From Mobula hypostoma (lineage: Eukaryota), in NCBI RefSeq assembly GCF_963921235.1, contig NC_086097.1:71674001-71738000 (forward strand): 64,000 nucleotides of DNA, given 5' to 3'. The stretch's first letter is position 1; each line of letters opens with the position of its first letter. The notes beneath the pieces were generated by a model. That model saw only the letters and a program-made list of their open reading frames with translations, searched no databases and was not told where the DNA came from. Positions 4,541 to 50,573 of this stretch are shown one piece after another. The position numbers and the translations under genes were made by a program.

Positions 4541-5432
4541 ATGTTCACAGCCCACTGAGTGGCTAGTGATTTAACAGTCCAAGGAAGTGAGTATTTTCAG
4601 AAGTAGCACCCATGTTTAGATCAATGACTACAGGATCACAAAGTATCAATGAATGTGGTGGAGAGATGTTTGTGCAAGAGACCAGCTATCAGGCAGTTTT
4701 GGGTGTCTTGGTGAAACAGGGCCACCAGTTGTGAAAAGTGGCTACTGACTGTTCGGAATGCCAGAGGGGTATGCATACACTCATTTGGGGGCATTATATA
4801 GTGGGATACTTGTTTGTGTGCTGGTGTATTTTAGAATAAATTTGAAATCTTGATAACAAGGATTTTAAATGCAAGGAAATATAACAGGTATTTTGAGTTC
4901 AGAGGCACATGTGGAAGATTGCAAGGTACCTACTCTGTAGTTTTACAATGACATTGTTCACATCAATACAATGCTTCCTTTGAATTATAGATCTTCAGTG
5001 GGAGACAGCCTCTGATTGGTCAGATACCTTGACTGGGACACTTACTCGTTGGTACAAATTTCTTAAACCCATAGTTGACGCAGGGCAATTAATACAACCC
5101 CATTGTCTTAAAATCTGGCTGATACATATGCAACCTCTCGGTCTGTGGAGCAGCATGGGTTTGTAACTTCAACTTACTGCTTGCAATTTACAGAACATTG
5201 AAGGCTAATTGCTAGCTTCTTGAATTTATCTACATTTACAATAACAACTGATGACAGGCTCTTGTTTGATTAAATATCTGCTCTATCTACATAACCCTAG
5301 AATACTCCCTTACCACCATAGTTCAGTATGTTCTAAGATTGTTTGGAATAAGGATAAGACTGGTCCTTAGGTGAAATGCTAAAATGAGGGAAAGCTCATT
5401 AGAATGGCAATAGGCAGGAATTGGGAGAATAT

Positions 5433-7885
5433 AAATATTGATTGGCATCTCCCTAGAGTGAGGGGTTTAGATGGGGTGGAGTTTGTTAGGTGTGTTCAGG
5501 AAGGTTTCTTAACACAATATGTAGATAAGCCTACAAGAGGAGAGGCTGTACTTGATCTGGTATTGGGAAATGAACCTGGTCAGGTGTCAGGTCTCTCAGT
5601 GGGAGAGCATTTTCGAGATAGTGATCACAATTACTCCTTTACTATAGCATTGGAGAGGGATAGGAACAGACAAGTTCAGGAAACATTTAATTGGAGTAAA
5701 CGGAACTATGAAGCTATCAGGTGGGAACTTGGAAGCATAAATTGGAAAGAGATGTTCTCAGGGAAATGTACAGAAGAAATGTGGCAAGTGTTCAGGGGAT
5801 ATTTGCGTGGGGTTCTGAGTAGGTACGTTCCAATGAGACATGGAAAGGATGGTAGGGTAGATAATCTGTGGTTCACAAAGGCTGTTGTAAGTCTAGTCAA
5901 GAAGAAAAGAAGAGCTACAAAAGGTTCAAAAAACTAGGTAATGATATGAATCTAGAAGATTATAAGGCTAGCAGGAAGGAGCTTAAGAATGAAATTAGGA
6001 GAGCCAGAAGGGGCCATGAGAAGGCTTTGGCAGACAGGATTAATGAAAACCCCAAGGCATTCTACAAGTATGTGAAGAACAAGAGGATAAGATATGAGAG
6101 AATAGGACCAATCAAGTGTGACAATGGAAAAGTGTGTATGGAACCAGAGGAAATAGCAAAGATACTTCATGAATACTTGCTTCAGTATTCACTATGGAAA
6201 TGGATCTTGGCGATTGTAGGGATGACTTGCAGTGGACTGAAAAGCTTGAGAATGTAGATGTTAAGAAAGAGGATGTGCTGGAGCTTTTGGAAAGCATCAA
6301 GTTGGATAAGTCCCGGGATTGGACGGGATGTACCCTAGGCTACGGCTACTCTGGGAGGTGAGGGAGGAGATTGCTGAGCCTCAGGTAATGATCTTTGCAT
6401 CATCAATGAGAACAGGAGAGGTTCCGGCGGACTGGGGGGGGGGTTGCGAATGTTCTTCTCTTATTCAAGAAAGGGAGTAGAGATAGCCCAGGAAATTATG
6501 GACCAGTGAGTCTTACTTCAGTGGTTGGTAAGTTGATGGAGAAGATCCTGAGAGGCAGGATTTATGAACATTTGAAGAGGCATAATATGATTAGGAATAG
6601 TCAGCCTGGCTTTGTCAAAGGCAGGTCGTGCCTTACGAGTCTGATTGAGTTTTTTGAGGATGTGACTAAGCACATTGATGAAGATAGAGCTGTAGATGTA
6701 GTGTATATGGATTTTAGCAAGGCATTTGATAAAGTACCCCATGCAAGGTTTATTGAGAAAGTAAGGAGGCATAGGATCCAAGGGGACATTGCTTTGTGGA
6801 TCCAGAACTGGCTTGCCCACAGAAGGCAAAGACTGGTTGTAGATGGTCATATTCTGCATGGAGGCTGGTGACCAGTGGTGTGCCTCAGGGATGTGTTCTG
6901 GGACCTCTACTCTTTGCGATTTTTATAAATGACCTGGATGAGGAAGTGGAGGGATGGGTTAGTAAATTTGCTGATGACACAAAGGTTAGGGGTGTTGTGG
7001 ATAGTGTGGAGGGCTGTCAGAGGTTACAATGGAACATTGATTGGAAGCAAAACTGGGCTGAGAAGTGGCAGATGGAGTTTAAGCCAGATAAGTGTGAGGT
7101 GGTTCATTTTGGTAGGTCAAATATGATGGCAGATTATAGTATTAATGGTAAGACTCTTGGCAATGTGGAGGATCAGAGAGATCTTGAGGTCTGCGTCCAT
7201 AGGACACTCAAAGCTGCTATACAGGTTGACTCTGTGGTTAAGAAGGCATACGGTGCTTTGACCTTCATCAATCGTGGGATTGAGTTTAAGAGCTGAGAGG
7301 TAATGTTGCAGCTATATAGGACCCTGGTCAGACCCCCCTTGGAGTACTGTGCTCAATTCTGCTCACCTCACAGTAGGAAGGACGTGGAAACCATATACCG
7401 TAAAGGGTGCAGAGGAGATTTACAAGGATGTTGCCTGGATTAGGGAGCATACCTTATGAGAATAGGTTGACTGAACTCGGCCTTTTCTCCTTGGAGCAAC
7501 GAAGGATGAGAGGTCACCTGACAGAGGTGTATAAGATAATGAGAGGCATTGATCATGTGGATAGTCAGAGGCTTTTCCCCAGGGCTGAAATAGCTAGCAT
7601 GAGAGGGCATAATTTTAAGGTGCTTGGAAGTAGGTACAGAGGAGATGTCAGGGGTAAGTTTTTTACGCAGAGAGTTGTGAGGGCGTGGAATTGGCTGCCA
7701 GCAGCGGCGGTGGAGGCGGAAATGACAGGGTCTTTTAAGAGACTCTAGATGGGTACATGAAGCTTAGAAAAATAGAGGGCTATGGGTAAGCCTAGGTAGT
7801 TCTAAGGTAGGGACATGTTTGGCCCAGTTTTGTGGGCCGAGGGGCCTGTATTGTGCTGTAGGTTTTCTATGTTTCTATGTTTCTA
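5433..7885 (+). mobile_element. CR1 LINE, 5'-truncated, frameshifted ORF2 (end of APE plus RT)
   Basis: PTRGEAVLDLVL, SDHN, YMDFSKAFDKVPH, SGVPQGCVLGPLLF, KFADDTKV; 3' tail (TTTCTATG)n. Confidence 0.95.
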
Positions 7886-8029
7886 ATATACTGAGTCTGT
7901 CCTGTTTGGGGATAAATATACTGTACATCTGATATGAGAGATTTTTTTTGAAAGACAAATTGATTCAGAACTGGCATGTTCTTGTGAGGTTGCTAAGGTT
8001 CTTAGATAACAAAATATAGTATATTTAAA

Positions 8030-18469: not shown

Positions 18470-21400
18470 TAGATATTCCCATTTAGGACCAATATCCTGG
18501 CAGGGAGGTTTGCAAAGGCTATGGGGGAGTGTTTAAACTAGAATTGCTGGGGGTGGGAACCGAACTGAAGTGACAGAGGAAGGGTAGTTTGGCTCACAAA
18601 TAGAGAAAGCTTGGAGACAGTGCAAGAGGGAGGATAGGCAGGTGATAGAGAATGGTTTGAGATGTGTCTATTTTAATGCAAGGAGTATTATGAACCATGC
18701 GGATGAGTTTAGAGTGTGGATCAGCATTTGGAGCTATGATGTTGTGGCCATTACAGAGACTTAGATGGTTCAGGGGCAGGAATGGCTACTTCAAGTGCCA
18801 GGCTTTAGATGTTTCAGAAAGGACAGGGAGGGAGGCAAAAGAGGTGGGGGCATGGCACTGTTGATCAGCGATAGTGTCATGACTGCAGAAAAAGAGGAAG
18901 TCATGGAGGGGTTGTCTACACAGTCTCTGCGGGTGGAAGTTAGGAAAAGGAAGGGGTGAATAACTCTACTGGGTTTTTTTTTTGCAGACCACCCAATAGT
19001 AACAGGGACATCGAGGAGCAGATAGGGAGACAGATTCTGGAAAAGAGTAATAATAACAGGGTTGTTGTGGTGGGAAATTTTAATTTCCCAAATATTGATT
19101 GGCATCTCCCTAGAGTGAGGGGTTCAGATAGGGTGGAGTTTGTTAGGTGTGTTCAGGAAGGTTTCTTGACACAATATGTAGATAAGCCTACAAGAGGAGA
19201 GGCTGTACTTGATCTGGTAATGGGAAAGGAACCTGGTCAGGTATCAGATCTCTCAGTGGGAGAGCATTTTGGAGATAATGATCACAATTCTATTTCCTTT
19301 ATTATAGCATTGGAGAGGGATAGGAACAGAAACGTTAGGGAAATGTTAACTAGAGTAAGGGGACTTATGAGGCTATCAGTCTGGAACTTGGAAGCATAAA
19401 TTGGAAACGGATGTTCTCAGGGAAATGTATGGAAGAAATGTGGCAAATGTTCAGGGGATACTTGCGTGGGATTCTGCATAGGTACGTTCCAATGAGACAT
19501 GGAAAGGATGGTTGGGTACAGGAACCATGGTGTACAAAGACTGTTGTAAATCTAGTCAAGAAGAAAAGAAGAGCTTATGAAAGGTTCAAAAAACTAGGTA
19601 ATGGTAGAGATCTAGAAGATTATAAGCTTAGCAGGAAGGAGCTGAAGAATGAAATTAAGAGAGCCAGAAGGGGCCATGACCCCAAGGCATTCTACCAGTA
19701 TGTGAAGAGCACAAGGATAAGTCGTGAGAGAATAGGACCAATCAAGTGTGACAGTGGAAAAGTGTGTATGGAACCGGAGGAGATAGCAGAGGTACTTAAT
19801 AAATACTTTGCTTCAGTATTCACTATGGAAAAGGATCTTGGTGATTGCAGGAACAACTTACAGCGGACGGAAAAGCTTGAGCATGTAGATATTAGATATT
19901 AAGGAAGAGAATGTTCTGGAGCATTTGAAAACCTTCAAGTTGGATAAGTCACTCGGACCTGACAAGATGTACCCCAGGCTACTGTGGGAAGTGAGGGAGG
20001 AGGTCGCTGAGCCTCTGGCGATGATCTTTGCATCATCAATGAGGACAGGAGAGGTTCCAGAGGATTGGGGGAGGGGGTTGCAAATGTTGTTCCCTTATTC
20101 AAGAAAGGGAGTAGATATAGCCCAGGAAATTATAGACCAGTGAGTCTTACTTCATGGGTTGGTAAATTGATGGAGAAGATCCTGAGAGACAGAACTTATG
20201 AACATTTAGAGAGGCATAATATGATTAGGAATAGTCAGCGTGGTTTTGTCAAAGGCAGGCCGTGCCTTACAAGCCTGATTGAATTTTTTGAGGATGTGAC
20301 TAAACACATTGATGAGGTTAGAGCCATAGATGTAGTGTATATGGATTTTAACAAAGCAGTTGATAAAGTACCCCATGCAAGACTTATTGAGAAAGTAAGG
20401 AGGCACGGGATCCAAAGGATAATTGCTTTGTGGATCAAGAACTGGCTTGCCCACAGAAGGCAAAGAGTGGTTGTAGACAGGTCATATTCTGCATGGAGGT
20501 TGGTGACCAGTGGTGTGCCTCAGAGATCTGTTCTGGGACCCCTACTCTTTGTGATTTTTATAAATGACCTGAATGAGGAAGTGGAGGGATGGATTAGTAA
20601 ATATGCTGATGACACAAAGGTTGGGGGTGTTGTGGATAGTGTGGAGGGCTGTCAGAGATTACAGCGGGATATTGATAGGATGCAAAACAGGGTTGAGAAG
20701 TTCCAGATGGAGTTCAACACAGATAAGTGTGTGATGGTTTATTTTGGTAGGTTCAGTATGATGGCAGAATATAGTACTAATGATAAGACTCTTAGAAGCG
20801 TGGAGGATCAGCGGGATCTTGGTGTCCAAGTCCATAGTCATACGGTGCATTGGCCTTCATCAGCCGTAGGATTGAGTTTAAGAGCCAGGAGGCAATGTTG
20901 CAGCTATATAAGACCCTGGTCAGACCCCACTTGGAGTACTGTGCTCAGTTCTGGTCGCCTCACTACAGGAAGGATGTGGAAACCATAGAAAGGGTGCAGA
21001 GGAGATTTACAAGGATGTTGCCTGGATTGGGGGGCATGCCTTATGAGAATAGGTTGAGAGAACTAGGCCTTTTCTCCTTGGAGTGACAGAGGATGAGAGG
21101 TGACCTGATGGAGCTGTACAAGATGATGAGAGGCATTAATCATGTGGATAGTCAGAGGCTTTTTTCCCAGGGCTGAAATGGCTAGCACGAGAGGGCACAG
21201 TTTTAAGGTGTTTGGAAGAAGGTACAGAGGAGATGTCAGGGTAAGTTTTTTACGTAGAAAGTGGTGAGTGCGTGGAATGGGCTGCTGGTGGCGGTGGTGG
21301 AGGTGGAAATGATAGGGTCTTTTAAGAGACTCCTGGACAGGTACATGGAGCTTAGAAAAATAGAGGGCTATGGGTAAGCCTAGGTAGTTCTGAGATAAGG

Positions 21401-21473
21401 ACATGTTCGGCACAGCTTTGTGGGCTGAAGGGCCTGTACTGTGCTGTAGGGTTTCTATGTTTCTATGTTTCTA
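18470..21473 (+). mobile_element. CR1 LINE: end of ORF1 plus nearly full, disrupted ORF2
   Basis: TNILAGRFAKA (end of ORF1), YFNARSI and DVVAITET (APE), NYRPVSLTS, KYADDTKVGG, tail (TTTCTATG)n; same subfamily as 5433-7885. Confidence 0.95.
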
Positions 21474-21659
21474 CTACCGCAGATGAAATCCACAGTCACA
21501 GACATGGGCACTTCAGCAAGCAACATTGTTTTAAGGCATTGAAAAAACCTATTCATACTCAAACTTGGCGGACCCTGGACTGTAGACTTAGGGTCACACG
21601 TGCATTACCCCTTTAAGAAAATGTAAGCACAGAAGCCGATCCAGCCTGCAGGTACAATA

Positions 21660-27910: not shown

Positions 27911-30211
27911 GAACCTGAATGTCAGAAAAAATCATGAACAGCACTGACAGTTACAGACCGATTACGGGACAAACAGTGGGGGTTAAACAGCATGAGAAAG
28001 CCGTCATGGACACTCACAAAGGAATGTGTGAGTACAGTGAAAGACTCCTTGAATTTAAAGTGAAAATAATGTTGTGATGGCTTCATTCGGGAAAGTTGAC
28101 AAATTTGATAGCACTAATGAAGGCTGCAAACAACGTGAAGGAGCTAAAGAGAGCCCCTACACTTAGCTTAATGGGTGCAAGAACATAAGTCTCGTATGCA
28201 ACCCAGTAACCCCTGAAAAGCCAGCAAAATTGTTACAACTATACAAAATCATTTGGACCCTAAACTGCTGGTAATAGCTGAATGATTTTACAAAAGTAAC
28301 CAGTCAAAAGATGAAAACATTTCTGAATACATTGCAGAAATGCACAAACTTTCCCAGTACTGTGACTTTAGAGATGGACTTTCTGATGCATTAAGGGACG
28401 GTCTTGTATTCGGCTTGCATAGTCAAAACATTCAAAAAAGGCTATTATCTGAAGGAGACCTAACCTTAGAATGACCATTGATCGTTGCAATATCGTTAGA
28501 TACTGCAGCAAAGGATGCAGCAGAACAACAGAAAAGGAGCTTAGAATATCAAATGCACAAAATGTCCCTGAACAGTGCAACTAGCCAAAGATGTGATCGA
28601 TGTGGCAAATCCTCCCATGATGCAAATGACTGTTGGTTCAAAGAAAAAGTATGCAAAATGTCACAGACAGGATCCCACTACCTCTGCAGACAAAAGTTTA
28701 CACTAGTTACAGATCACCAGCCCCTTTTGTCCATTTTCAATCCCAGGAAGAGGATTCCAGTGATGACGACTACCCAGTTACAATGTTAGGCACTATTCAT
28801 AGGAGCCCAACTCTTACGACATAGAGTTCAAGGGTACCAATCAACATAGCAATTCTGATGGCTTGTCACATCTTCCACTCTTGGCAACTGAAGAAGTCAC
28901 CCAGCAGAAGTGTCCCACACCACATTGGTGGATCAGTTGCCTGTAACAAGTTGTGAAATACAAAGGAAAACAAAGAATGACCATACATTGACTAAGTCTG
29001 TGAAATCCCATGTAAGGATGGCCAGCTCAATGTAACTCTATGTTTCCAGAACTCTCTGCGAGACAAGACCAACTGATGGTTTGTCAAAGAACGCTGATGT
29101 GGGGATCTTGTGTTGTGGTTCCCTCTAAACTGCGCACCAGAGTGTTAGAAAATTTGCATGAAGGACACCTGGGTACAGTCAAGATGAAGAGTCTTGCCCG
29201 GAGCTATGTGTGGTGGCTGTGAGTAGATAAACAGATTGAAAGCTTGGCCAAAAGTTGTTCAGGATGCCAAAAGGTTCAAAATGTGCTCCCACAGCCACCA
29301 TTATACCCATGGGAGTGGCTGTCTTTGCCATGGCAAAGAGTACATATTGACTTAGTTGGGCCATTCATGAACTCCATGTCTCAGATTGCTGTGGATGCTC
29401 ATTTGGAGTGGCTGGAGGTTATACCAATAAAGTCAACCACTTCAGCAAAGTCTATCTCCACTCTGAGGACTACCTTTGCCAGAAATGGCTTACCAGAACA
29501 AATTGTGAGTGACAACGGGCCACAATACATGTCAGAAGAATTCTGACTGTTCATGAATAAAAATGGCATCAGACATTTCAAGTCAGCTCCTCACCACCCA
29601 GCAAGACATGGGTTAGCTGAAAGGTTTATCCAAACCTTCAAGAAGTCAGGTAAAGCGACGAACAAGAAGGGCATTCCTCTACAGCACAAGGTGGACAACT
29701 TCCTTTTTGTGTATTGCAACTCTGATAATGCAGCGTTGAATCAAACACCTGCAATGCTGTTCATGAACAGGAATCCGAGATCTCGCACAAACCTCCTGAA
29801 TACATATCTATGGAGGGAAGTACAGAATAAACAGTTCAGCCAGTTGCCAAGTGAAGCAGCAAGGAGCTTCGAGATTGGACAGGAAGTCTTAGTGCGTGAT
29901 TACCAAGAAGACAAGCTGACACCTGGTAGGGTAGCTACAAGAACTGGACCACTGGTGTACACAGTGGATGTTGGAGATCAGACATGGAGACGTCATGTTG
30001 ACCAGATACTGGATGCTCAACCGAAGAACACACCCGAGTCAACTGCTTCCAACAAGATGAACACATTACAGTCACTTGATTTACCTCTCAGTGATGATCA
30101 TGTCACTGACAGCAATGTGACACCAGTAACCGAGAAAGTTGCCGTAGACAAGACACCTAACAAACCTAATGGTTCTCCACAGGTCCAGAGGCAACACCCA
30201 AAAGACTGAAT

Positions 30212-31119: not shown

Positions 31120-31515
31120 TGTAATGTATGAATCTAATTGTTTTAGAGCAAAGACCCCCCTTAGCACTACATACTGATCTGTTGTATATGCATGCACATT
31201 GTTCTCTCTCTCAGTGCAATGTGAATACACCAGTTAAAATCATCTCCCGCACGCGTGCTTTTATTGAATCGATATGTAGTTGTGCACAGACCCAGCGTAA
31301 CCCATGTACTTTTTTCTCTCTTTTTTTTGCTCTCTTTTTGCACTATTTAATTAATTTATTTTTTAAATATAAATTTCTGTAAATTGCAGTTAAGTGTTTT
31401 ATTATTATGTATTGCAATGTACTGCTGCCGCAAAACAACAAGTTTCATGACAAGCAGCACACATAAAAGTTGCTGGTGAATGCAGCAGGCCAGGCAGCAT
31501 CTCTAGGAAAAGGTA

Positions 31516-31553
31516 CAGTTGATGTTTCGGGCCGAGACCCTTCGTCAGGACAA
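31516..31553 (-). ncRNA. Degenerate hammerhead motif (opposite arm)
   Basis: The reverse complement ttgtc-ctgacga-agggtctcggccc-gaaa-catcaactg retains the core, but stems I and III are damaged by CpG-type changes. Confidence 0.5.
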
Positions 31554-32008
31554 ACTGAAAGAAGAGCTAGTAAGAGATTTGAAAGTGGGTGGGGGAGGGG
31601 GAGATCTGAAATGATAGGAGAAGACAGGAGGGGGAGGGATGGAGCCAAGAGCTGGATAGTTGATTGACAAAAGGGATATGAGAGGATCATGGGACGGGAG
31701 GCCTAGGGAGAATGAAAAGGGGGAGGGGGAGAAAAGCCCAGAGGATGGGCAAGGGGTATAGAGAGAGGGACAGAGGGAGAAAAAGGAGAGAGAGAAAAAG
31801 AATGTGTGTATATAAATAAATAAATAACGGATGGGGTACGAGGGGGAGGTGGGGCATTAGGGGAAATTTGAGAAGTCAATGTTCATGCCATCAGGTTGTA
31901 GGCTACCCAGACGGAATATAAGGTGTTGTTCCTCCAACCTGAGTGTGGCTTCATCTTGACAGTAGAGGGGGCCGTGGATGAACATTGACTTCTCATTCTT
32001 CTTTTAGT

Positions 32009-32046
32009 TAGTCCTGACGAAGGGTCTCAGCCCGAAACGTCGACTG
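32009..32046 (+). ncRNA. Minimal type-I hammerhead ribozyme motif in a Penelope pLTR
   Basis: UAGUC-CUGACGA-A-GGG(UCUCAG)CCC-GAAA-CG-UC-GACUG: intact core, stem I UAGUC/GACUG, 3-bp stem II, palindromic ACGU in place of stem III. Confidence 0.75.
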
Positions 32047-32189
32047 TACCTCTTCCTAGAGATGCTGCCTGGCCTGCTGCGTTCACCAGCAACTTTGATG
32101 TGAGTGGCTTGAAATTTCAGCATCTGCAGATTTCCTCCTGTTTGAAGTTTCATGACTTATGCCAGTGATGTTAAATGTGATTCTGATGG

Positions 32190-35600: not shown

Positions 35601-36999
35601 GAAGAGGATAGTGACCAGAAGACTGTGAGGATAGTGCCTGACCAAGGTTGCATATGCACAGCTCCAGACTGAGCCAATATTTGGACACACCTGCATATAA
35701 ATATTGCTGTTCCCAACATCTTCCATCAAATTGTACATCCTTGAATAGCCAAATATTGGAAGTGAGTTCAGGCCTGTAGAACTTCGTCAGTGGCTGTCAA
35801 CGCAAGTCTGTTTTAAATGTTTACACACTGTGTATATCTCAGCAATGTGTTTCTGCCCAGATTTCCTAAACTACTTTGTTTGCCTGAAATCCTCATTTCA
35901 TCTGATGATGATGGCTTGTGAAGATCAGGAGGGAAGAAGAGTCCTCAGCAGTGACGGCATGACTGTTGGTGACTGTGGAGGCCAATTCTGGATCTGCAGA
36001 CTCTGGTGCAGTAGGGACACGGGAACAGCTGTGATGCAGGTTCTTGGGTAGTAGGATCCTTCCTATGTCTCTTCTTCTCTTCAACAGTTGCTCTTCTGGA
36101 TTCCTCAGAATTCCTGTCTGCTCCATGGATCAGTGTTCTCCAGCGGTCTCTGTCACAAGCCAGCTGCTGCCACTCATTGACCTCAATATTTGCCAGAGAG
36201 AGCTGCTGCTTTAGTTGGTCTTTGTGCCTCTTGTGCAGAAATATCCAATAATATGACAGAACACAAAATCCTTAAAAACTGTCTGCATTCGCCAAGCTGT
36301 GATATATTTTGGGAGTCATTTATGGACAAATGGTCCCTAACCCTAAAGAAGGTCATGAAGAGATAGGTTATTTAGCTTGCTGATACATGGCTGATCCATG
36401 GCAAAACTTTATATATTGGGTAATACCCACTGCCATAACAATTACACTGACACCTGGATGGTTATGTATTGGGAGGGTCACTTCAGTCATTTTGCTCAGC
36501 TTTTTGAGAAACCCAAGGATAAAATGTGATGAGAAATTAAATTCAGTTGCTACTCTGAGCAGAGTCATTCTTAAACTAATGCCCAGATCCAAGCCTAGAT
36601 TTCTATTTCTTGCCACCTTCTCTTGCATCACTTTCTACAGCATTCAGTTGTACAATATTCAATTCTATTCACAGTCACTCAGTAAATGAAGGGCCAAGCC
36701 TGCCTGCAGCAAGATAGTCAGGCATTGGCAGGTGACAAGTGACATTTAGGCCATAAAGTCACCAGGTACTAAGCAGCTCCAGTAAAAAAGAACCTGTCCA
36801 TCTACCCCTGAATTAATTGAGCCTCCACCGATCAATCAGCCAGAATTGAACACTGAAGAGAAGCTCCTTTCACCAGCCTACAACCATCAGAGTAGGAGAT
36901 CTGCTATGTATTCAGCAGTGATTTACTCCCCTCTTGATACACAAAGGTCTTTCCACAGTCCACAAGACAAAGGTGACATAGAATGCACAGTCCATGTTC

Positions 37000-38212
37000 C
37001 AAGCATTCCCTGGTAATGCTTCCCAACTCTTTCTGTGCTACATTGAGAACTGTGTTGGCGCTGCTTCATGCCTCTCTTCGTCAGTTTCATGAACTTTGCC
37101 TCTAGCTTCCACCCTGCCCATAAATCCCCTTTTTCAATCTCTCTGTTTCCATCTCTGAAGACAACTGTTCATTGATATCTTTAACAAACCCACTGCCACA
37201 CTTGGCTATCTTGACTATACCTCTTCCCACCCTGTCCCCTGTAAAAATACTATTCCCTTTTCTCAGTTCCTTTGTCTCCACTACATCTGTTCCCAGGGTA
37301 AGGCTTTCCTTTCCAGGATATTAGAGATGTCCTCCTTCTTAAAGAATGGGGTTTCCCTTCATCCACCACTGATGCTTCTTTCACCCATATCTCCTCCATT
37401 TCCTGGACATCTCTCCTCGCCTATCCTCTTGCTGCCTTAACAACATAGAGTTCCTCTTGTCCTCACTTACCACCCCATGATCTTCTGCATCTACTCTATC
37501 TGGCATTCCTAATGTGGCCTCCTTTACACTGGTTAGACCCAACGTAGATTGGGGGACCGCTTTGTTGAGCACCTATATATCCTGCTTTTTAGCAGGGTTT
37601 CCTGGTGGCCAACCATTTTAATTCCAATCCCCATACCCATTCCAGCATGTTGGTCCATGGTCTCCTTTACAGCCACGATGAGGCCACTCTCAGGGTGGAG
37701 GAGCAACAGCTCGTATTCTGTCCAGGTAGCCTCTAACATGACGGCATGAACATCAATTTCTCCCGCTTCTGGTAACTTCTCCCCCTGCCCCTTCTCTCTT
37801 CTTCAATTCCCCAATCTGAATCCCCCTTACCTCTTCTCTTCTCCTCACCTGACTATTACCTCCCCCCCGATGCCCCTTCCTTCCCTTTCTCCCATGATCC
37901 ACTCTTCTCTCCAGTCAGATTCCTTCTTCTCCAGCCCTTTACCTTTTCCACCTATCACCTCCCAGCTTCTTACTTCATACCGCTCCCTCATCTACCTGTC
38001 TTCGCCTATCACCTTTTAGCTTGTAATACTCTCCCTCCCCTCATCTCCTTATTCTGCTTCTTCCCCCTTACTTTCCAATCCTCATGAAGGGTCTCGGCCT
38101 TAAATGTTGACTGTTTATTCATTTCCATAGCTGCTGCCTGACTTGCTGAGTTCCATCAGCACTTTGTATGCGTTGCTATGGATTTCCAGCATCTGCAGAA
38201 TCTCTTGTGTTT
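37000..38212 (+). mobile_element. Penelope-like element: decayed RT and GIY-YIG endonuclease plus pLTR
   Basis: YIENCVGAAS (YIDD motif), YLDYTSSHP, IPFSQFL, GLLYTG*TQRRLGDRFVEHL; the pLTR has a degenerate hammerhead at ~38076-38113; an extra pLTR end lies at 38378-38495. Confidence 0.88.
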
Positions 38213-38659
38213 ATGCTCTCCCCTTGCATGAACAAGCACGGCTGCAACACCAGTCTAGAGACTCAAGTTATCCAAAAAAATCAGGCATTTGGTTGGCTAC
38301 TCCATCCTATATCCTAAGTATACAATACTTCCTCTACCAATATACTGTGTCTAAAGAATATACTATGACACAACATACTGACGAAGGGTCTTGGCCTGAA
38401 ATGTCGATTGTTTTGTTTCCATGGATGCTGCCTGACCTGCTGAGTTCGTCCAGCATTTTGTGTATGTTGCTTTGGATTTCTAGCATTTGCAAAATGTTTA
38501 AAACATACTATAGTTAGTTGCTTAGGCTACTCTGACAGAGCCAGCACAACCCATGACCCACGACCTTCATCTCCGTGAAGTGTAAGAGAGAAGGTCCATG
38601 GGAACACTGCCATTTTGCATGTACTTCTCTAACCTTCTCATCTTCCTCATTTGGAAATA

Positions 38660-43339: not shown

Positions 43340-43678
43340 AAATGAGGTCAATATGAATGAGGGCTCATCACTTGCTGTAGAGGAAGATCTCATTTCCTGA
43401 AGAAGGATGGCAGGTCAGATGTCCTGAAGCAGAAAGCCTCAATTTTAGAACATGTGGTAGAGACGGAGAAACTGGATTCCTTTGAAGTGACTGACTAGGA
43501 GGAGGTGCTGTTAAGGTTGTTGTGAGAGTCAGTGGATTTATCATAAATGTCAGTGGATTGTTTGTTGAAAATGATCCAAGTGAGTCCAAGGGCGAGGTGG
43601 AACCATACTGCGAAGTTGAGAAGATGGTTGAGTTCTGCACAGATGCAGGATGCAGCACCAATGCATTCATGATGTAGA
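43340..43678 (-). mobile_element. Penelope RT fragment
   Basis: ECIGAASCICAEL..NFAVWFHLALGLTW..STDIYDKSTDSH..STSS, homologous to 37040-37230. Confidence 0.75.
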
Positions 43679-44375: not shown

Positions 44376-45529
44376 GTCTAATTTTAAGTGAATATAGAAC
44401 ATAGAACACTACAGCAGAGTAGAGGACATTTGGCTGATGATGTTTTGTCATCATTTTAACCTACTGTAAGATCAATCCAACACATCCCTCCTGTATAGCC
44501 CTCTATGTTCTATCATCTACGTGCCTACCTAAGAGTTTCTTAAAAGTCTAATGTAGCCATCATTGTCCGTAATGTATCCATAATGTAGTTGAGAAAGAGT
44601 TACTAATCTGCAACCTTTATCTCACAATCAGAACTGGCTTTCTTTCCATTCCTTCTCCAGATAAAGGAGGAACTGAGAAGGATCCACCTGGCTAAACACA
44701 CTCTCTCTCCTCCAATCCAGTAGCAGAGCAGAATCAATGGGCTGAATGGCCTACTTCTGCTCCTAGATCTTACATTCTTATGGTCTAATCCCCTATAGCA
44801 CATCATGCACTCTCTTCTCTGAGACATTACAAAATTAATGTTGATGGAGCACTGAAGTTTTTAACAAACTGTTTCATCTTTCACTTTGCCAAGATGATGT
44901 CCTGTGCTGTTGACTAACTTAGCTGTCTGGCTTCCAGTTTAGCCATTGTGGAGACATTTCAGGAATTTAGGGGATCTTGCCACTTTTTTGTAATAAGCAA
45001 ATTGCACCAACATGCTATATTATAATGCCACTATCGGGTCAGATGCCAGCAGCCCACCTGACTGTACATTAGATGATAAGAAAATCCAAATGGAAGACTT
45101 TTGACTAGGCTTTGGGCAATACATTTTCCAGAACCGTTTCTGTAGCTTGTTGTTGTAATTCTACGTGATGTCAGATGGTCACACTAAAGAAAATCTATGA
45201 TCATTTCTCCACAAGCTATTCATTCTCTCTCACTCAGATTTTTTAGATTTTATTCAAAAGACACTGAGGTTTTCTTATCTCTGAATCAAATTTACGGACC
45301 TGTTTGTTGTACTGGCAAAACATAACAAGTCCAGTTTTGGCTGCATGGATCAGAGCACAGGACGCTATGAAATGTATCTCATTAACCTCATGTAGTTACT
45401 CAAGCAGTCAATGTATAAAGTAGCATGCAGAAAATAAGTAAAGCCCCCTTAGAGACATTAGTTCTAAATAGGAAATATTGTATCCATGTTTTATCATGGC
45501 CAGAAACAATGCTTAACAGTGATCATAAC

Positions 45530-46775
45530 CACATGAAACTCTGCTGAAGCTGAAAATCTTGAGCAACACTCACAAAATGCTGGAAGAATGCAGCAATACA
45601 GGCCTCTTCCACAGAGGGAAATAAACAGTTGACATTTTGGGTGGAGACCCTTCATTAGGACTGGAAAGGAAGGGGGCAGAAGCAAGAATAGGAAGGTTGG
45701 GGGGGGGGAAAGGTGAAGGAGTACAAGTTGGCAGGCGGTAGGTAAGACCAAGTGATGGAAAAAGTGAGGGCGTAGGGGAGGGGGGAATGAAGAAAAAATC
45801 TGAGATAGTTGATAGGTGGAAGAGATAAAAGGTAGAAGAAGAAGGTATCTAACCCAATGACATGAATATTGATTTTTCACTCTACTGGTAATTACTCCCC
45901 TCCTCCCTCTCCCCTTTCTCTCTTTTTTCTATTCCCCATCATGGTTACCTTCTCACCTCTTCTCTTCTTGTTACCTGTCCATTACCTTCTTCTGGTTCCA
46001 CTCCTCCTTCCACTTCTTCCATGGTCCACTGTCCTCTACTATTAGATTTCTTCTTCTTTAGCCCTTTACCTCTTCCACCTATCATGTCCCAGTTTTTTAC
46101 TTCATTCCCCCCTCCCCACTCACCCACCTTCCCCTTCACCTGGTTTCACTTGTCACCTACCAGTTTGTACTCCTCCTATTCCCCCGCCTTCATATTCTAG
46201 CTTCTGCACCCTTTCTTTCCAGTCCTGAGTAATTACCAGTAGTTTGAAAAATCAACATTCATGCTATTGGGTTTGACTTCTTCTGCTTTATCTCTTCCAC
46301 CTATCAAACATCTCAGATTTTTACTTCATTCCGCACCCCCACCCCCCCGGCCCTATACACTCACTTTTTCCCTCTCTTGGTCTCACCTACCACCTGTCAA
46401 TTTGTACTCCTTCACCCCCCCCCACCTTCTTATTCTTGCTCTGCCCCATTCTTTTCCAGTCCTGATGAAGGGTCTCCACCCAAAATGTCGACTGTTTATC
46501 TCCCTCTATAGATGGTGCCTGAATTACTGAGTTCTTCCAACATTTTGTGAGTGTTGCTCAAGATTTTCAGCTTCAGCAGAGTTTCATGTGGTTATGATCA
46601 CTATTAAGCATTGTTTCTGGCCAGGATAAAACATGGGATACAATATTTCCTATTAATAACTGATGTCTCTAAGGAGGTATATTTATTTTCTCAGCCCAAA
46701 ATGTTGACTATTTATTCCCCTCCATAGATTCTGCCTGACTTGCTGTGTTCCTCCAGCATTTTGTGCGTGTTGCTT
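45530..46775. mobile_element. Compound Penelope pLTR cluster containing an inverted duplication
   Basis: Minus pLTR at 45530-45857; plus pLTR at 45858-46228 resuming at 46689; inverted copy of 45429-45897 at 46227-46691. Confidence 0.85.
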
Positions 46776-48084: not shown

Positions 48085-49824
48085 GTGAGCAGAGATATGA
48101 TCTTTTTAATTAATTTACATCAATTAACTGTGTTTTCAGACACATTAATTATTTAATTTGATTCCGACTCATTTTAAATGTATTTTTCAGAAATACTTGG
48201 AGAAGTTTGAGAAAAGGTCTTTGCTCTACATCAACAGGATAGTCTGGGGCTCGGCTTCATGGGATAATTGCCCACAGACCATATCTCTTCAGGGTTTAGT
48301 AGCCCCATGAGGCTGCAAAATGTTACTGGATCTGTGGGGATCAGCCCAGGGGCTGGCTAAGCCAAGCACAATGTGACCTAATGTTGCAGACTGTCAGAAG
48401 CGCGAGCAAGAAGAACATGAGTAGTCCCTGAAATCTGGTCTAATTAGGACCTGCTATTCATCAATGTGCTAGCATGTAACCACAGTAACCATCATATTCT
48501 GAGTTCCTGAAAAATACAGAACTTGTTAGGAAGATAAAGAAGCTCCTTTCCTACTAAATTAATGCACTTCAACAGCAAGCTCCACATCTCCTACAGTGCA
48601 TAAACCTGGTAAACTTGAGACACCTGCAGCATGCTTAATTAAAACAGACCAGAATATTAAAAAATAATTGGCCAGAGAAATATCTGTTGCATTATATGCA
48701 TTGTAGAAATAAATGAGAGTCAAAATGCAAATCTGCTGTTCTGTTTGAGCTGGATTAACATTCACTCATCACTGAGAAGGTGCTCTTTGACCTGATATAA
48801 ATCTTCCCTGGGAGATGGAGCCCCCTAGCAAGGATTGAGGATAATTAAACAACTCCTGGAAAATAATAGCAGAATGATGTAGGAGAGTTGAGCAGATTTG
48901 CAAAATTAATTTAAATCATGGTCACATCAAGAAAAATATTATGCATGTATGGGAGAAAGATTATGTAGAAAGATTAATTCTTGTTTTGTTTAATTAAAAG
49001 TTAATTATTGGCTAACTCACTTTTGCTTTTATGTACATTCCTAAATAATTGTGAAAATAATAGATGTCTGGTTCCATGTAAATGCAGAGATGCTCTTTTA
49101 TTCAAATCTGTTATTCTCAACAGTTTATTGTCAGTCTGGGCTCAAAAGCAAATGCCCTCTGTTGTAGGCATGGGACCAGAAGAAGCTTGATTTTGGAGGG
49201 GAACAGTGATTAGGGTGTGGACATTGTAAACCTACTCCTTTACCTCCAGCTCTTTACATTCCAGTAGGTGGGGCTGTTGGCAAATATATAATTCCATTCC
49301 CCAAAACCCCTTCCTCTTCCCTACCACTAAAGGAGCTAGTCTGGGAAGTATGTGCATTTAAAAAAGGTTTTTGCCCTATATCCTATTAAAAACAAACCTG
49401 AGATGATTGGCCAAAGACATTCAAATATTTAAATATCCAAAAGCTGAACTTCAAGGGCAAAGCTTTCCCTTAGCGTGTGTTTGAGGCTCTGCTTCAGGTT
49501 AGGGCATTGTTACTAGGCACCATGTTGCTCTGGGCCAACAAGGTAGGGCCTGCTGTGTACAGATTAGCTAAGTACAACCAGGGGTGACTGCAGCCCAACA
49601 TTGTAGGCAGCGAGCTGTTGCTCAACCACTGCAGTTACTTTCACACTGCAACTAACTCCTTGTTGAATCCTTGTGAGCAACTTTACACTGCATTCAGAGG
49701 CTACATCCTTGTTTTGGAGGCTAGATTTGTCAAACATTCCCACACCTCATATCCCATTTTCACAAAGGAGACCAATGCTTTAAGTAAGACTAAAATACCT
49801 TTCATTGCCCTGTCCTGTCCGGCA

Positions 49825-50375
49825 TTACCGGAAGTTCAAGAAATCGATGTTCATGCCATCAGGGTGGAGGCTACCCTGCTGAAATATAAGGTGTTGCTCC
49901 TCCAACCTGAGTGCGGCCTCCTCGTGACAATGCAGGAGGCCATGGACTGACATGTCGGAATGGGAATGGGAAGTGGAGTTTAAATGGGTGGCCACTGGGA
50001 AATTCCACTTTTTCTGGCCAATGGAGTGTAGGTGCTCTCTCCCTCTGGTGTCCACCTCCTTTTCTTTCTTCCATGTCCTTCTGTCTTTTCCTATCACATT
50101 CCCCCTTCTCCAGCCTGTGTCCCTTTCACCAATCAATTTCCTAGCTCTTTACTTCACCCCTCCTCCCTCCCAGTTTCACTAATCACCTTGTGTTTCCTTC
50201 TCCCCTCCCCCCACTTTCATACTCTGGCTCCTCATCTTTTTTGCCAGTCCTGATGAAGGGTCTCGGCTGAAAATGTCAACTATGCTCTTTTCCATAGATG
50301 CTGCCTGGCCTGCTAAGTTCCTCCAGCATTTTGTGTGTGTTGCTTGGAATTCCAGCATCTGCAGATTTTCTCAAG
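49825..50375. mobile_element. Penelope-like element: inverted ORF end plus pLTR
   Basis: Minus PVATHLNSTSHSHSDMSVHGLLHCHEEAALRLEEQHLIF..PDGMNIDF; plus pLTR with cagtcctgatgaagggtctcggctgaaaatgtcaac at 50245. Confidence 0.88.
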
Positions 50376-50573
50376 TTTTTTCTGTCCTTCACCATCTGCC
50401 CTTCCCCCTGTCACCCATCCATGCTAGTCCAAACATCTTGCAGTCTCCACTTCCTTGCCATATAACTTTCTGTATTGTTCTGCTTTAGGCCCTCGAGTTC
50501 TACCTTTTTGCTCTTCGCTTGCTTTAAGGAAGTATTCGTCACACTGCAGATATACAATAAATTCAGACTCCTG

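What the first reader, a model, noticed from the sequence alone, without database searches (positions are those of the whole stretch)
32009..32046. Apparently intact minimal hammerhead ribozyme in a Penelope pseudo-LTR
Seen: UAGUC CUGACGA A GGG UCUCAG CCC GAAA CG UC GACUG. It has the hammerhead core CUGANGA...GAAA...UH, a 5-bp stem I, a 3-bp stem II, an extra A after A9, and stem III reduced to the palindrome ACGU. Established: Penelope-like elements carry minimal type-I hammerheads thought to cleave as dimers. Inference: this copy could self-cleave after GUC (32041) when paired with a second copy. It is invisible to the ORF track.
Basis: partly seen in the sequence, partly recalled or inferred. 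Interest (0 to 1): 0.75.

Follow-up and report, generated by a model that had tools for sequence, protein, structure and literature searches.

The report
Minimal hammerhead in inverted Penelope fragment
This is a real, well-formed copy of the tiny self-cutting RNA motif that Penelope-type jumping genes are known to carry, but it sits in a short broken insertion with no suitable partner copy, so it is an ordinary example that probably never cuts.

Summary
The motif is at 32009-32046 exactly as described. It is the only hit of a strict minimal-hammerhead descriptor in the window, against 0 hits in 300 shuffles. Stem II can be 4 bp. The motif lies in the tailed + arm (31997-32144) of one head-to-head inverted, 5'-truncated Penelope-like insertion (31452-32144) with an exact 12-bp target-site duplication. 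The other arm carries the ORF end, 35/39 identical to a Neptune-type ray protein. Minimal hammerheads with an extra base after A9, opposite-strand pairs and one-sided 30-40 nt tails are all published. Against cleavage of this copy: the only near partner is on the opposite strand and decayed, and in a read-through RNA it would pair with 36 of 38 bases. None of 5 same-strand copies could cut it, and both arms were copied through an uncut site. Intactness needs no selection (about 11% by chance). No raw reads were available, so ends were untested. The scan found this family before, in the same genome and in others. Verdict: ordinary new member of a known kind.

The parts
31440..31451 (+). Left copy of the 12-bp target-site duplication
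   Evidence: Exact 12-mer repeated at 32145-32156. Random 30-nt window pairs shared a 12-mer in 2 of about 20000 draws.
31452..31979 (-). Long arm: 5'-truncated PLE 3' end (ORF end, pyrimidine-rich pLTR, decayed hammerhead), without tail
   Evidence: Related contigs continue the ORF beyond 31979 (loose ends).
31516..31553 (-). Decayed hammerhead of the inverted arm (palindrome broken, stem I 3 of 5 pairs)
   Evidence: The changes at 31552, 31523 and 31520 are replaced by the + arm letters in 97-99%, 46-74% and 50-73% of depth in 4 runs.
31857..31979 (-). Last 40 codons and stop of the PLE ORF (C-terminus of the GIY-YIG endonuclease region)
   Evidence: 35/39 identical to P0002, E 8e-23. P0002 has an RT motif, CX4CxxC linker and GIY-YIG.
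31978..31995 (+). 18-nt junction piece, an exact inverted copy of 31869-31886 (fold-back or template switch)
   Evidence: blastn 18/18
31997..32144 (+). Short arm: pLTR end starting 12 nt upstream of stem I, 90% identical to the long arm over 115 nt, plus tail
   Evidence: (I16)
32009..32046 (+). Minimal type-I hammerhead motif, intact; predicted cut after C32041 in a dimer only
32112..32144 (+). 33-nt one-sided PLE tail (33-34 nt given a 1-nt ambiguity with the TSD)
   Evidence: Present on this arm only. 4 of 11 other copies align out to 32141-32143.
32145..32156 (+). Right copy of the 12-bp target-site duplication
   Evidence: The left and right flanks are contiguous in 3 of 3 uninterrupted copies of the target repeat in the window and in 470 contigs of run X19.

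Best explanation
The motif is the ancestral minimal type-I hammerhead of a very abundant Neptune-type Penelope-like retroelement family, most likely of a ray (inferred from the nearest named proteins). It survives in the short arm of one dead insertion. SHOWN: 12-bp TSD; head-to-head arms; ORF end; one-sided 33-nt tail; 18-nt inverted junction piece; intact motif. INFERRED, from the in vitro Poseidon data of Frangieh 2024: the element's endonuclease cut both target strands 12 bp apart. Each end primed reverse transcription at one of two internal start sites, about 70 and 103 nt 3' of the ribozyme cut site. Both cDNAs ran through an uncut (or religated) hammerhead. One ran 528 nt into the ORF end and folded back for about 18 nt; the other stopped after 148 nt; the two were then joined. 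In an active tandem element the hammerheads of adjacent pLTRs would pair through the ACGU palindrome and swap stem I strands, and each core would cut the partner after GUC, probably slowly and with help from the element's protein. This genomic copy has no same-sense partner nearby, folds alone into an inactive rod, and would be locked by its antisense arm, so it most likely never cleaves in vivo. It is intact by chance.
For: Anatomy. Family; 58 of 65 homologous proteins screened carry a CX2-5CxxC motif 20-80 residues before the GIY-YIG G[EQ]T motif. Abundance: 79,528, 54,899, 9,351 and 9,814 contigs laid in 4 of 4 runs. Among the 40 rows shown, the only change inside 32009-32046 is loop II 32029 A>G (51-88% of depth). 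Folding: monomer stem III impossible; 14 of 14 dimer pairs canonical; 36 of 38 bases pair with the inverted arm at P 0.87-1.0. Core G5-G8 pairs with C15.2-C17 at P 0.98-1.0 in the monomer. Neutral survival chance 0.114 from the arm divergence. Literature.
Against: No cleavage assay or raw reads exist here, so silence of this copy is argued, not shown. A transcript starting at the junction, without the inverted arm, keeps stem II (P 0.89-0.99) and partly stem I (P 0.24-0.74) and could meet family RNA in trans. Table 3 hid 90 further rows, and contigs that fit both arms are split between them, so family conservation is only roughly measured. At the inverted arm, C11.1>U (31529) reaches 10-58% of depth and the palindrome is lost in 26-54%, so much of the family is CpG-decayed. 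Covariation in 9 window copies is not above shuffles. The clade call rests on the linker motif, not on a tree.
Confidence: 0.85

Rival explanations
1. This copy is a working ribozyme in vivo. It is transcribed on the + strand from a start near the junction and is cut after C32041 by (or cuts) RNA of other family copies in trans, perhaps helped by PLE protein.
For: All core bases, stems and the palindrome are intact. The local fold keeps stem II. The family is abundant in two contig sets guessed to be RNA. This copy could form 5/5 stem I and 4/4 stem III pairs with the substrate strands of copies at 38076, 38373 and 46457.
Against: No evidence that this locus is transcribed: no piece spans it and no host exon was found by Pfam in 248 ORFs. 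Inverted-arm duplex. The active dimer (-16.7 kcal/mol) lies far above the best dimer (-29.0) and two monomers (2 x -12.9) in a model that omits Mg2+ and tertiary contacts. Frangieh 2024 found no cleavage without protein and no reads at the cut site; Li 2026 saw cleavage in 1 of 9 dimers.
Confidence: 0.08
2. The motif belongs to a non-autonomous retrozyme (hammerhead mini-element amplified as tandem repeats or circles) rather than to a truncated autonomous PLE.
For: The + arm is short and non-coding; retrozymes related to pLTRs are reported for one chondrichthyan.
Against: The same TSD-bounded insertion carries the ORF end. The copies are inverted, not tandem, and have the one-sided tail. 5' ends vary between copies.
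Confidence: 0.05
3. Chance match to a loose motif.
For: The loose core pattern is common by chance; Rfam finds nothing.
Against: Strict descriptor 0 of 300 shuffles. The motif sits in the pLTR position expected from the literature and recurs in decayed form in 8 further copies.
Confidence: 0.02

Closest known systems
Minimal hammerheads (min-HHR) of metazoan PLE pLTRs, including fish Neptune, Poseidon and Xena (Cervera and de la Pena 2014, PMC4209133)
   Same: Short helix I (4-5 bp), unpaired base between positions 9 and 10.1, G10.1-C11.1 pair, palindromic 15.2-16.2, no loop III, pLTR location; dual motifs 100-700 bp apart on opposite strands are described there.
   Different: Helix II is 3-4 bp here against 7-8 bp in the Schistosoma families. 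The parts I read name no cartilaginous fish, and a search of the supplement text for shark/skate terms gave 0 hits (figures not held).
PAc Poseidon element of Anolis (Frangieh et al. 2024, PMC11167929)
   Same: Hammerhead in the pLTR; two RT starts that define a 30-40 nt tail; both strands cut and extended; uncut RNA used as template.
   Different: Different clade (this family has the Neptune/Nematis-type linker). In PAc the ORF starts inside stem II; the start codon of this family was not located here.
Inverted-pLTR insertions with one-sided tail and 8-10 bp TSD in EN+ PLEs (Arkhipova et al. 2013, PMC3846280; Craig et al. 2021, PMC8557442)
   Same: Head-to-head inverted arms, tail on one end only, TSD around the whole unit.
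   Different: TSD is 12 bp. The junction carries an 18-nt fold-back piece with a 91-nt loop rather than a tight palindrome.
Non-LTR retrozymes (Li et al. 2026 preprint 10.64898/2026.07.22.740005)
   Same: Type-I hammerhead derived from PLE pLTRs; present in the one chondrichthyan sampled.
   Different: Retrozymes are tandem and non-coding; this unit is inverted and carries ORF sequence.

Membership tests
Minimal type-I hammerhead of PLEs | Core CUGANGA ... GAAA ... UH | tested here: met
Minimal type-I hammerhead of PLEs | Helix I open-ended, 4-5 bp; helix II with G10.1-C11.1; extra base after A9 | tested here: met
   5 bp, 3-4 bp, A32021
Minimal type-I hammerhead of PLEs | Palindromic 15.1-16.1 segment; stem III possible only in a dimer | tested here: met
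   Monomer closure is forbidden; homodimer has 14 of 14 canonical intermolecular pairs
Minimal type-I hammerhead of PLEs | Covariation in stems across family members | tested here: inconclusive
   9 decayed window copies: 84% of cells paired, not above shuffles (196/500); 3 double changes (29/500). No outside sequences obtained.
Minimal type-I hammerhead of PLEs | Self-cleavage as a dimer | not testable with these tools
   Needs an assay; all 24 runs offered were contigs only
EN+ Penelope-like element | ORF with RT and C-terminal GIY-YIG endonuclease | tested here: met
   Only the last 40 codons are in this copy; they match P0002 at 35/39. P0002 has an RT motif and a GIY-YIG hit at E 0.00046, just under Pfam's cut-off; most of its 63 longer homologues carry RVT_1.
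EN+ Penelope-like element | pLTR, inverted 5'-truncated copy, one-sided 30-40 nt tail, TSD | tested here: met
Neptune clade | CX2-5CxxC Zn-finger-like linker between RT and EN (shared with Nematis) | tested here: met
   In P0001, P0002 and 58 of 65 proteins screened; definition. The linker lies outside the part kept in this copy.
Neptune clade | RT phylogeny with reference Neptune elements | not tested
   No named reference set was at hand; Neptune versus Nematis is not formally resolved
Non-LTR retrozyme | Tandem, non-coding units each with a hammerhead | tested here: not met
   Arms are inverted and one carries ORF sequence; nearest same-strand copy is 6,067 nt away

The most novel reading that the evidence does not exclude
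In this ray family the ribozyme is gated by RNA processing. A long pyrimidine tract ends in AG at or just before stem I in most long copies, and older copies read G|GTAA at the ORF stop (4 of 4). The pLTR could thus be an intron whose removal rebuilds stem I, as reported for Drosophila virilis Penelope. Intact solo copies like this one could act in trans on the abundant family RNA, while inverted arms act as antisense locks or hairpin RNA sources. This would be a splice-switched vertebrate retroelement ribozyme. It is untested: the GTAA includes the stop codon, this copy lacks the donor, and no splice joint is among the 15 shown of 403.
Probability: 0.07. Interest if true: 0.6.

Novelty: new member of a known kind. 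Interest (0 to 1): 0.14.

Why it matters
Little as a single copy: such motifs run to thousands per genome in fish and amphibians. Its modest value is as a clean fossil of Penelope insertion, with TSD, two RT start points 33 nt apart and a fold-back junction. It shows that both templates were uncut at the ribozyme, which bears on the open question of what PLE hammerheads are for. A family this abundant would be good material for asking, with end-mapping, whether they ever cut in vivo.

Tried and rejected
Rfam scan of the whole window at E<=1: 2 weak miRNA matches, no hammerhead. No whole genome is held, so genome-wide copy counts and orthologous sites could not be had. A metagenome pattern scan for outside family members gave 88 loci; none aligned to either arm by blastn at E<=1e-3, so all were dropped as chance matches. 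Pfam on the two short ORF ends: 0 families. Host-exon search: 248 ORFs scanned (242 of the 268 non-repeat ORFs of 52 aa or more, plus 6 long repeat ORFs); only retroelement domains and one weak 8-residue TEP1_N match were found. This is a weak negative, so the transcribed strand is unknown. Covariation test not significant. Sequencing runs: 24 of 24 were contigs, and the two 'RNA?' runs laid are guesses, so ends, strand and expression could not be read; 4 of the 24 were laid. Contig loose ends that begin at 32010 and 32047 suggest the hammerhead is a conserved island between subfamilies, but a 2-nt indel next to stem I explains the 3' edge equally well, so I give it little weight. The idea that the + arm is a spliced product was rejected: it keeps 12 nt upstream of stem I including the AG. 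Lunse et al. 2017 is not held and is known to me only as cited in PMC6765202. Literature searches for this motif in cartilaginous fishes listed no paper on this family; the closed supplements of the 2026 preprint and Repbase may hold it.

Full report
OBSERVATION. Stem I has 5 pairs, the core is CUGACGA, an extra A sits at 32021, stem II has 3 G-C pairs plus a possible U-G pair, and GAAA is followed by the palindrome ACGU and C32041. The loose core pattern is not informative: 13 matches against a shuffled mean of 7.7. A strict descriptor (core, stem II, palindrome, UH, 4 bp of stem I) finds this site alone on both strands and nothing in 300 of 300 shuffles. Rfam reports no hammerhead.

WHAT SURROUNDS IT. 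The motif lies in one arm of an inverted repeat: 31451-31565 and 31997-32111, 90% complementary, 431 nt apart. The minus arm runs from 31979 down to 31452. It holds the last 40 codons of an ORF, a pyrimidine-rich stretch and a decayed hammerhead at 31553-31516. The plus arm starts 12 nt upstream of stem I and extends 33 nt beyond the end of the minus arm. Between the arms is an 18-nt exact inverted copy of 31869-31886. An exact 12-mer flanks the whole unit (31440-31451 and 32145-32156); random 30-nt window pairs shared a 12-mer in 2 of about 20000 draws. The flanks are the two halves of another repeat's 3' end. They are contiguous in 3 of 3 other copies found in the window, and 470 contigs of run X19 run from 31452 straight into right-flank sequence. 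This is one insertion event.

WHICH ELEMENT. A 70-residue ORF end from a sister copy at 49828-50037 retrieves 4 proteins named from Hypanus sabinus and Mobula hypostoma, so the window is probably from a ray (inference). The ORF end of this insertion is 35/39 identical to P0002. P0002 has an RT motif, a CX4CxxC linker and a GIY-YIG match just under Pfam's cut-off. Its 63 longer homologues are mostly RT-bearing proteins of 740-1150 residues, and 58 of 65 proteins screened carry the linker. Craig et al. 2021 (passages) give this linker as the mark of Neptune and Nematis; Neptune is the one reported in vertebrates. No tree was built.

FAMILY VIEW. In 4 of 4 runs laid (contigs only, at least 85% alike), 9,351 to 79,528 contigs fall on the stretch. 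Among the 40 difference rows shown (90 hidden), the only one inside 32009-32046 is loop II 32029 A>G, at 51-88% of depth. The three changes that damage the minus-arm hammerhead are replaced by the plus-arm letters in 97-99% (31552), 46-74% (31523) and 50-73% (31520) of depth. The plus-arm sequence is therefore the ancestral form. Against a tidy picture: at the minus arm, C11.1>U reaches 10-58% of depth and a quarter to a half of depth lacks the palindrome. Contigs that fit both arms are split, so these shares are rough. Of 9 copies scored in the window only this one is intact; most losses are CpG-type transitions. Their alignment shows no covariation above shuffles.

IS INTACTNESS SPECIAL? The arms differ at 11 of 115 sites: 4 of 12 CpG-by-arm sites and 7 of 103 others. 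At these rates all constrained bases of the motif survive with probability 0.114. In a family with tens of thousands of matching contigs that is unremarkable, so there is no sign of selection on this copy.

COULD IT CUT? As a monomer stem III cannot close, and the core bases G5-G8 pair with C15.2-C17 at P 0.98-1.0, making an inactive rod. A homodimer forms 14 of 14 intermolecular pairs, so the design is sound. Its nearest-neighbour energy (-16.7 kcal/mol) is above the best dimer (-29.0) and two monomers (2 x -12.9); the model ignores Mg2+ and tertiary contacts. The near partner is on the other strand, and even as sense RNA it would break 3 of 14 pairs. In a + read-through RNA it is made first and pairs with 36 of the 38 bases at P 0.87-1.0, reducing stems I and II to P 0.00. 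In the double-hammerhead model the partner's core cuts this copy's GUC (inference from the topology). Of 5 same-strand copies scored, 4 have broken cores and the fifth (38373, 6.4 kb away) forms 1 of 5 stem I pairs. In favour of some activity: a transcript starting at the junction keeps stem II at P 0.89-0.99, and this copy could in principle cut three of those copies. No host exon was found and no raw reads were offered, so transcription is unknown.

MECHANISM. Shown: the anatomy above. Inferred: staggered cuts 12 bp apart; priming on both strands at two internal RNA sites about 70 and 103 nt 3' of the cut site; one cDNA of 528 nt that folded back for about 18 nt; one of 148 nt; joining head to head. 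This follows Frangieh et al. 2024 (parts 1-2 of 4 read). They found that the Anolis Poseidon protein cuts and extends both strands, that the tail is the stretch between two RT starts, that the hammerhead cuts only with protein present, that cutting is not needed for insertion, and that no RNA-seq reads end at the cut site. Both arms here span the scissile bond, so both templates were uncut or religated.

COMPARISON. Cervera and de la Pena 2014 (parts 1-2 of 4 read; supplement text searched) describe every feature seen: the extra base after position 9, G10.1-C11.1, the palindrome, presence in fish Neptune elements, opposite-strand pairs 100-700 bp apart, no monomer cleavage and low dimer cleavage. 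Arkhipova et al. 2013 (passages) describe inverted pLTRs, a 31-bp one-sided tail and 8-10 bp TSDs. Li et al. 2026 (preprint, parts 1-3 of 5; supplements closed) report hammerhead repeats in one chondrichthyan and cleavage in 1 of 9 Xenopus dimers. A review (PMC6765202, passages) cites Lunse et al. for dimer cleavage; that paper is not held. Searches listed nothing on this ray family. Earlier notes of this scan describe the same kind of family in this genome and in others; they agree but are not independent evidence.

VERDICT. Observation confirmed; interpretation partly supported. It is a genuine minimal hammerhead of a known kind in a dead, inverted PLE fragment, and this copy most likely does not cleave in vivo. 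Interest 0.14.

Noticed in passing
window 45484-46636: A second, older inverted PLE unit whose two arms share about 70 nt beyond the tail end, i.e. apparent flank sequence duplicated in inverted form. It also has an internal junction near 46225-46262 where a pLTR stops inside the hammerhead core and joins an inverted ORF end. No TSD was found.
   Followed up: partly
window 49821-50380: Third inverted unit: ORF end on the minus strand joined head to head with a + pLTR, decayed hammerhead and tail.
   Followed up: partly
window 38372-38509: Very short solo copy that starts at the hammerhead core and is flanked by an 8-bp direct repeat (38372 and 38502), a likely TSD.
   Followed up: partly
window 14340, 32009, 59942, 62768: 4 of 12 copies have their 5' break within about 25 nt of stem I, 6 run further upstream, and 2 gave no alignment.
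   Followed up: partly
window 36994-38220: Longer decayed + strand copy of the same PLE with RT-thumb to GIY-YIG remains, pLTR and tail; further remains at 43363-43668 on the minus strand.
   Followed up: no
window 37746, 45862, 46262, 49854 and the pLTRs upstream of stem I: Older copies read G|GTAA at the ORF stop, and long copies have a 75-93% pyrimidine stretch ending in AG at or near stem I: a possible intron across the pLTR, untested.
   Followed up: partly
window 28475-30206: Fragments of an LTR retroelement pol gene (RT RNase H, integrase zinc-binding and core domains) in several broken frames.
   Followed up: no
window 5383-7900 and 19090-21480: Two copies, about 85-95% alike and 13.6 kb apart, of a LINE with RVT_1 hits.
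   Followed up: no
P0004: An annotated ray protein named ATP synthase subunit C3-like ends in this PLE's endonuclease C-terminus: either an annotation artefact or exonisation of the element.
   Followed up: no
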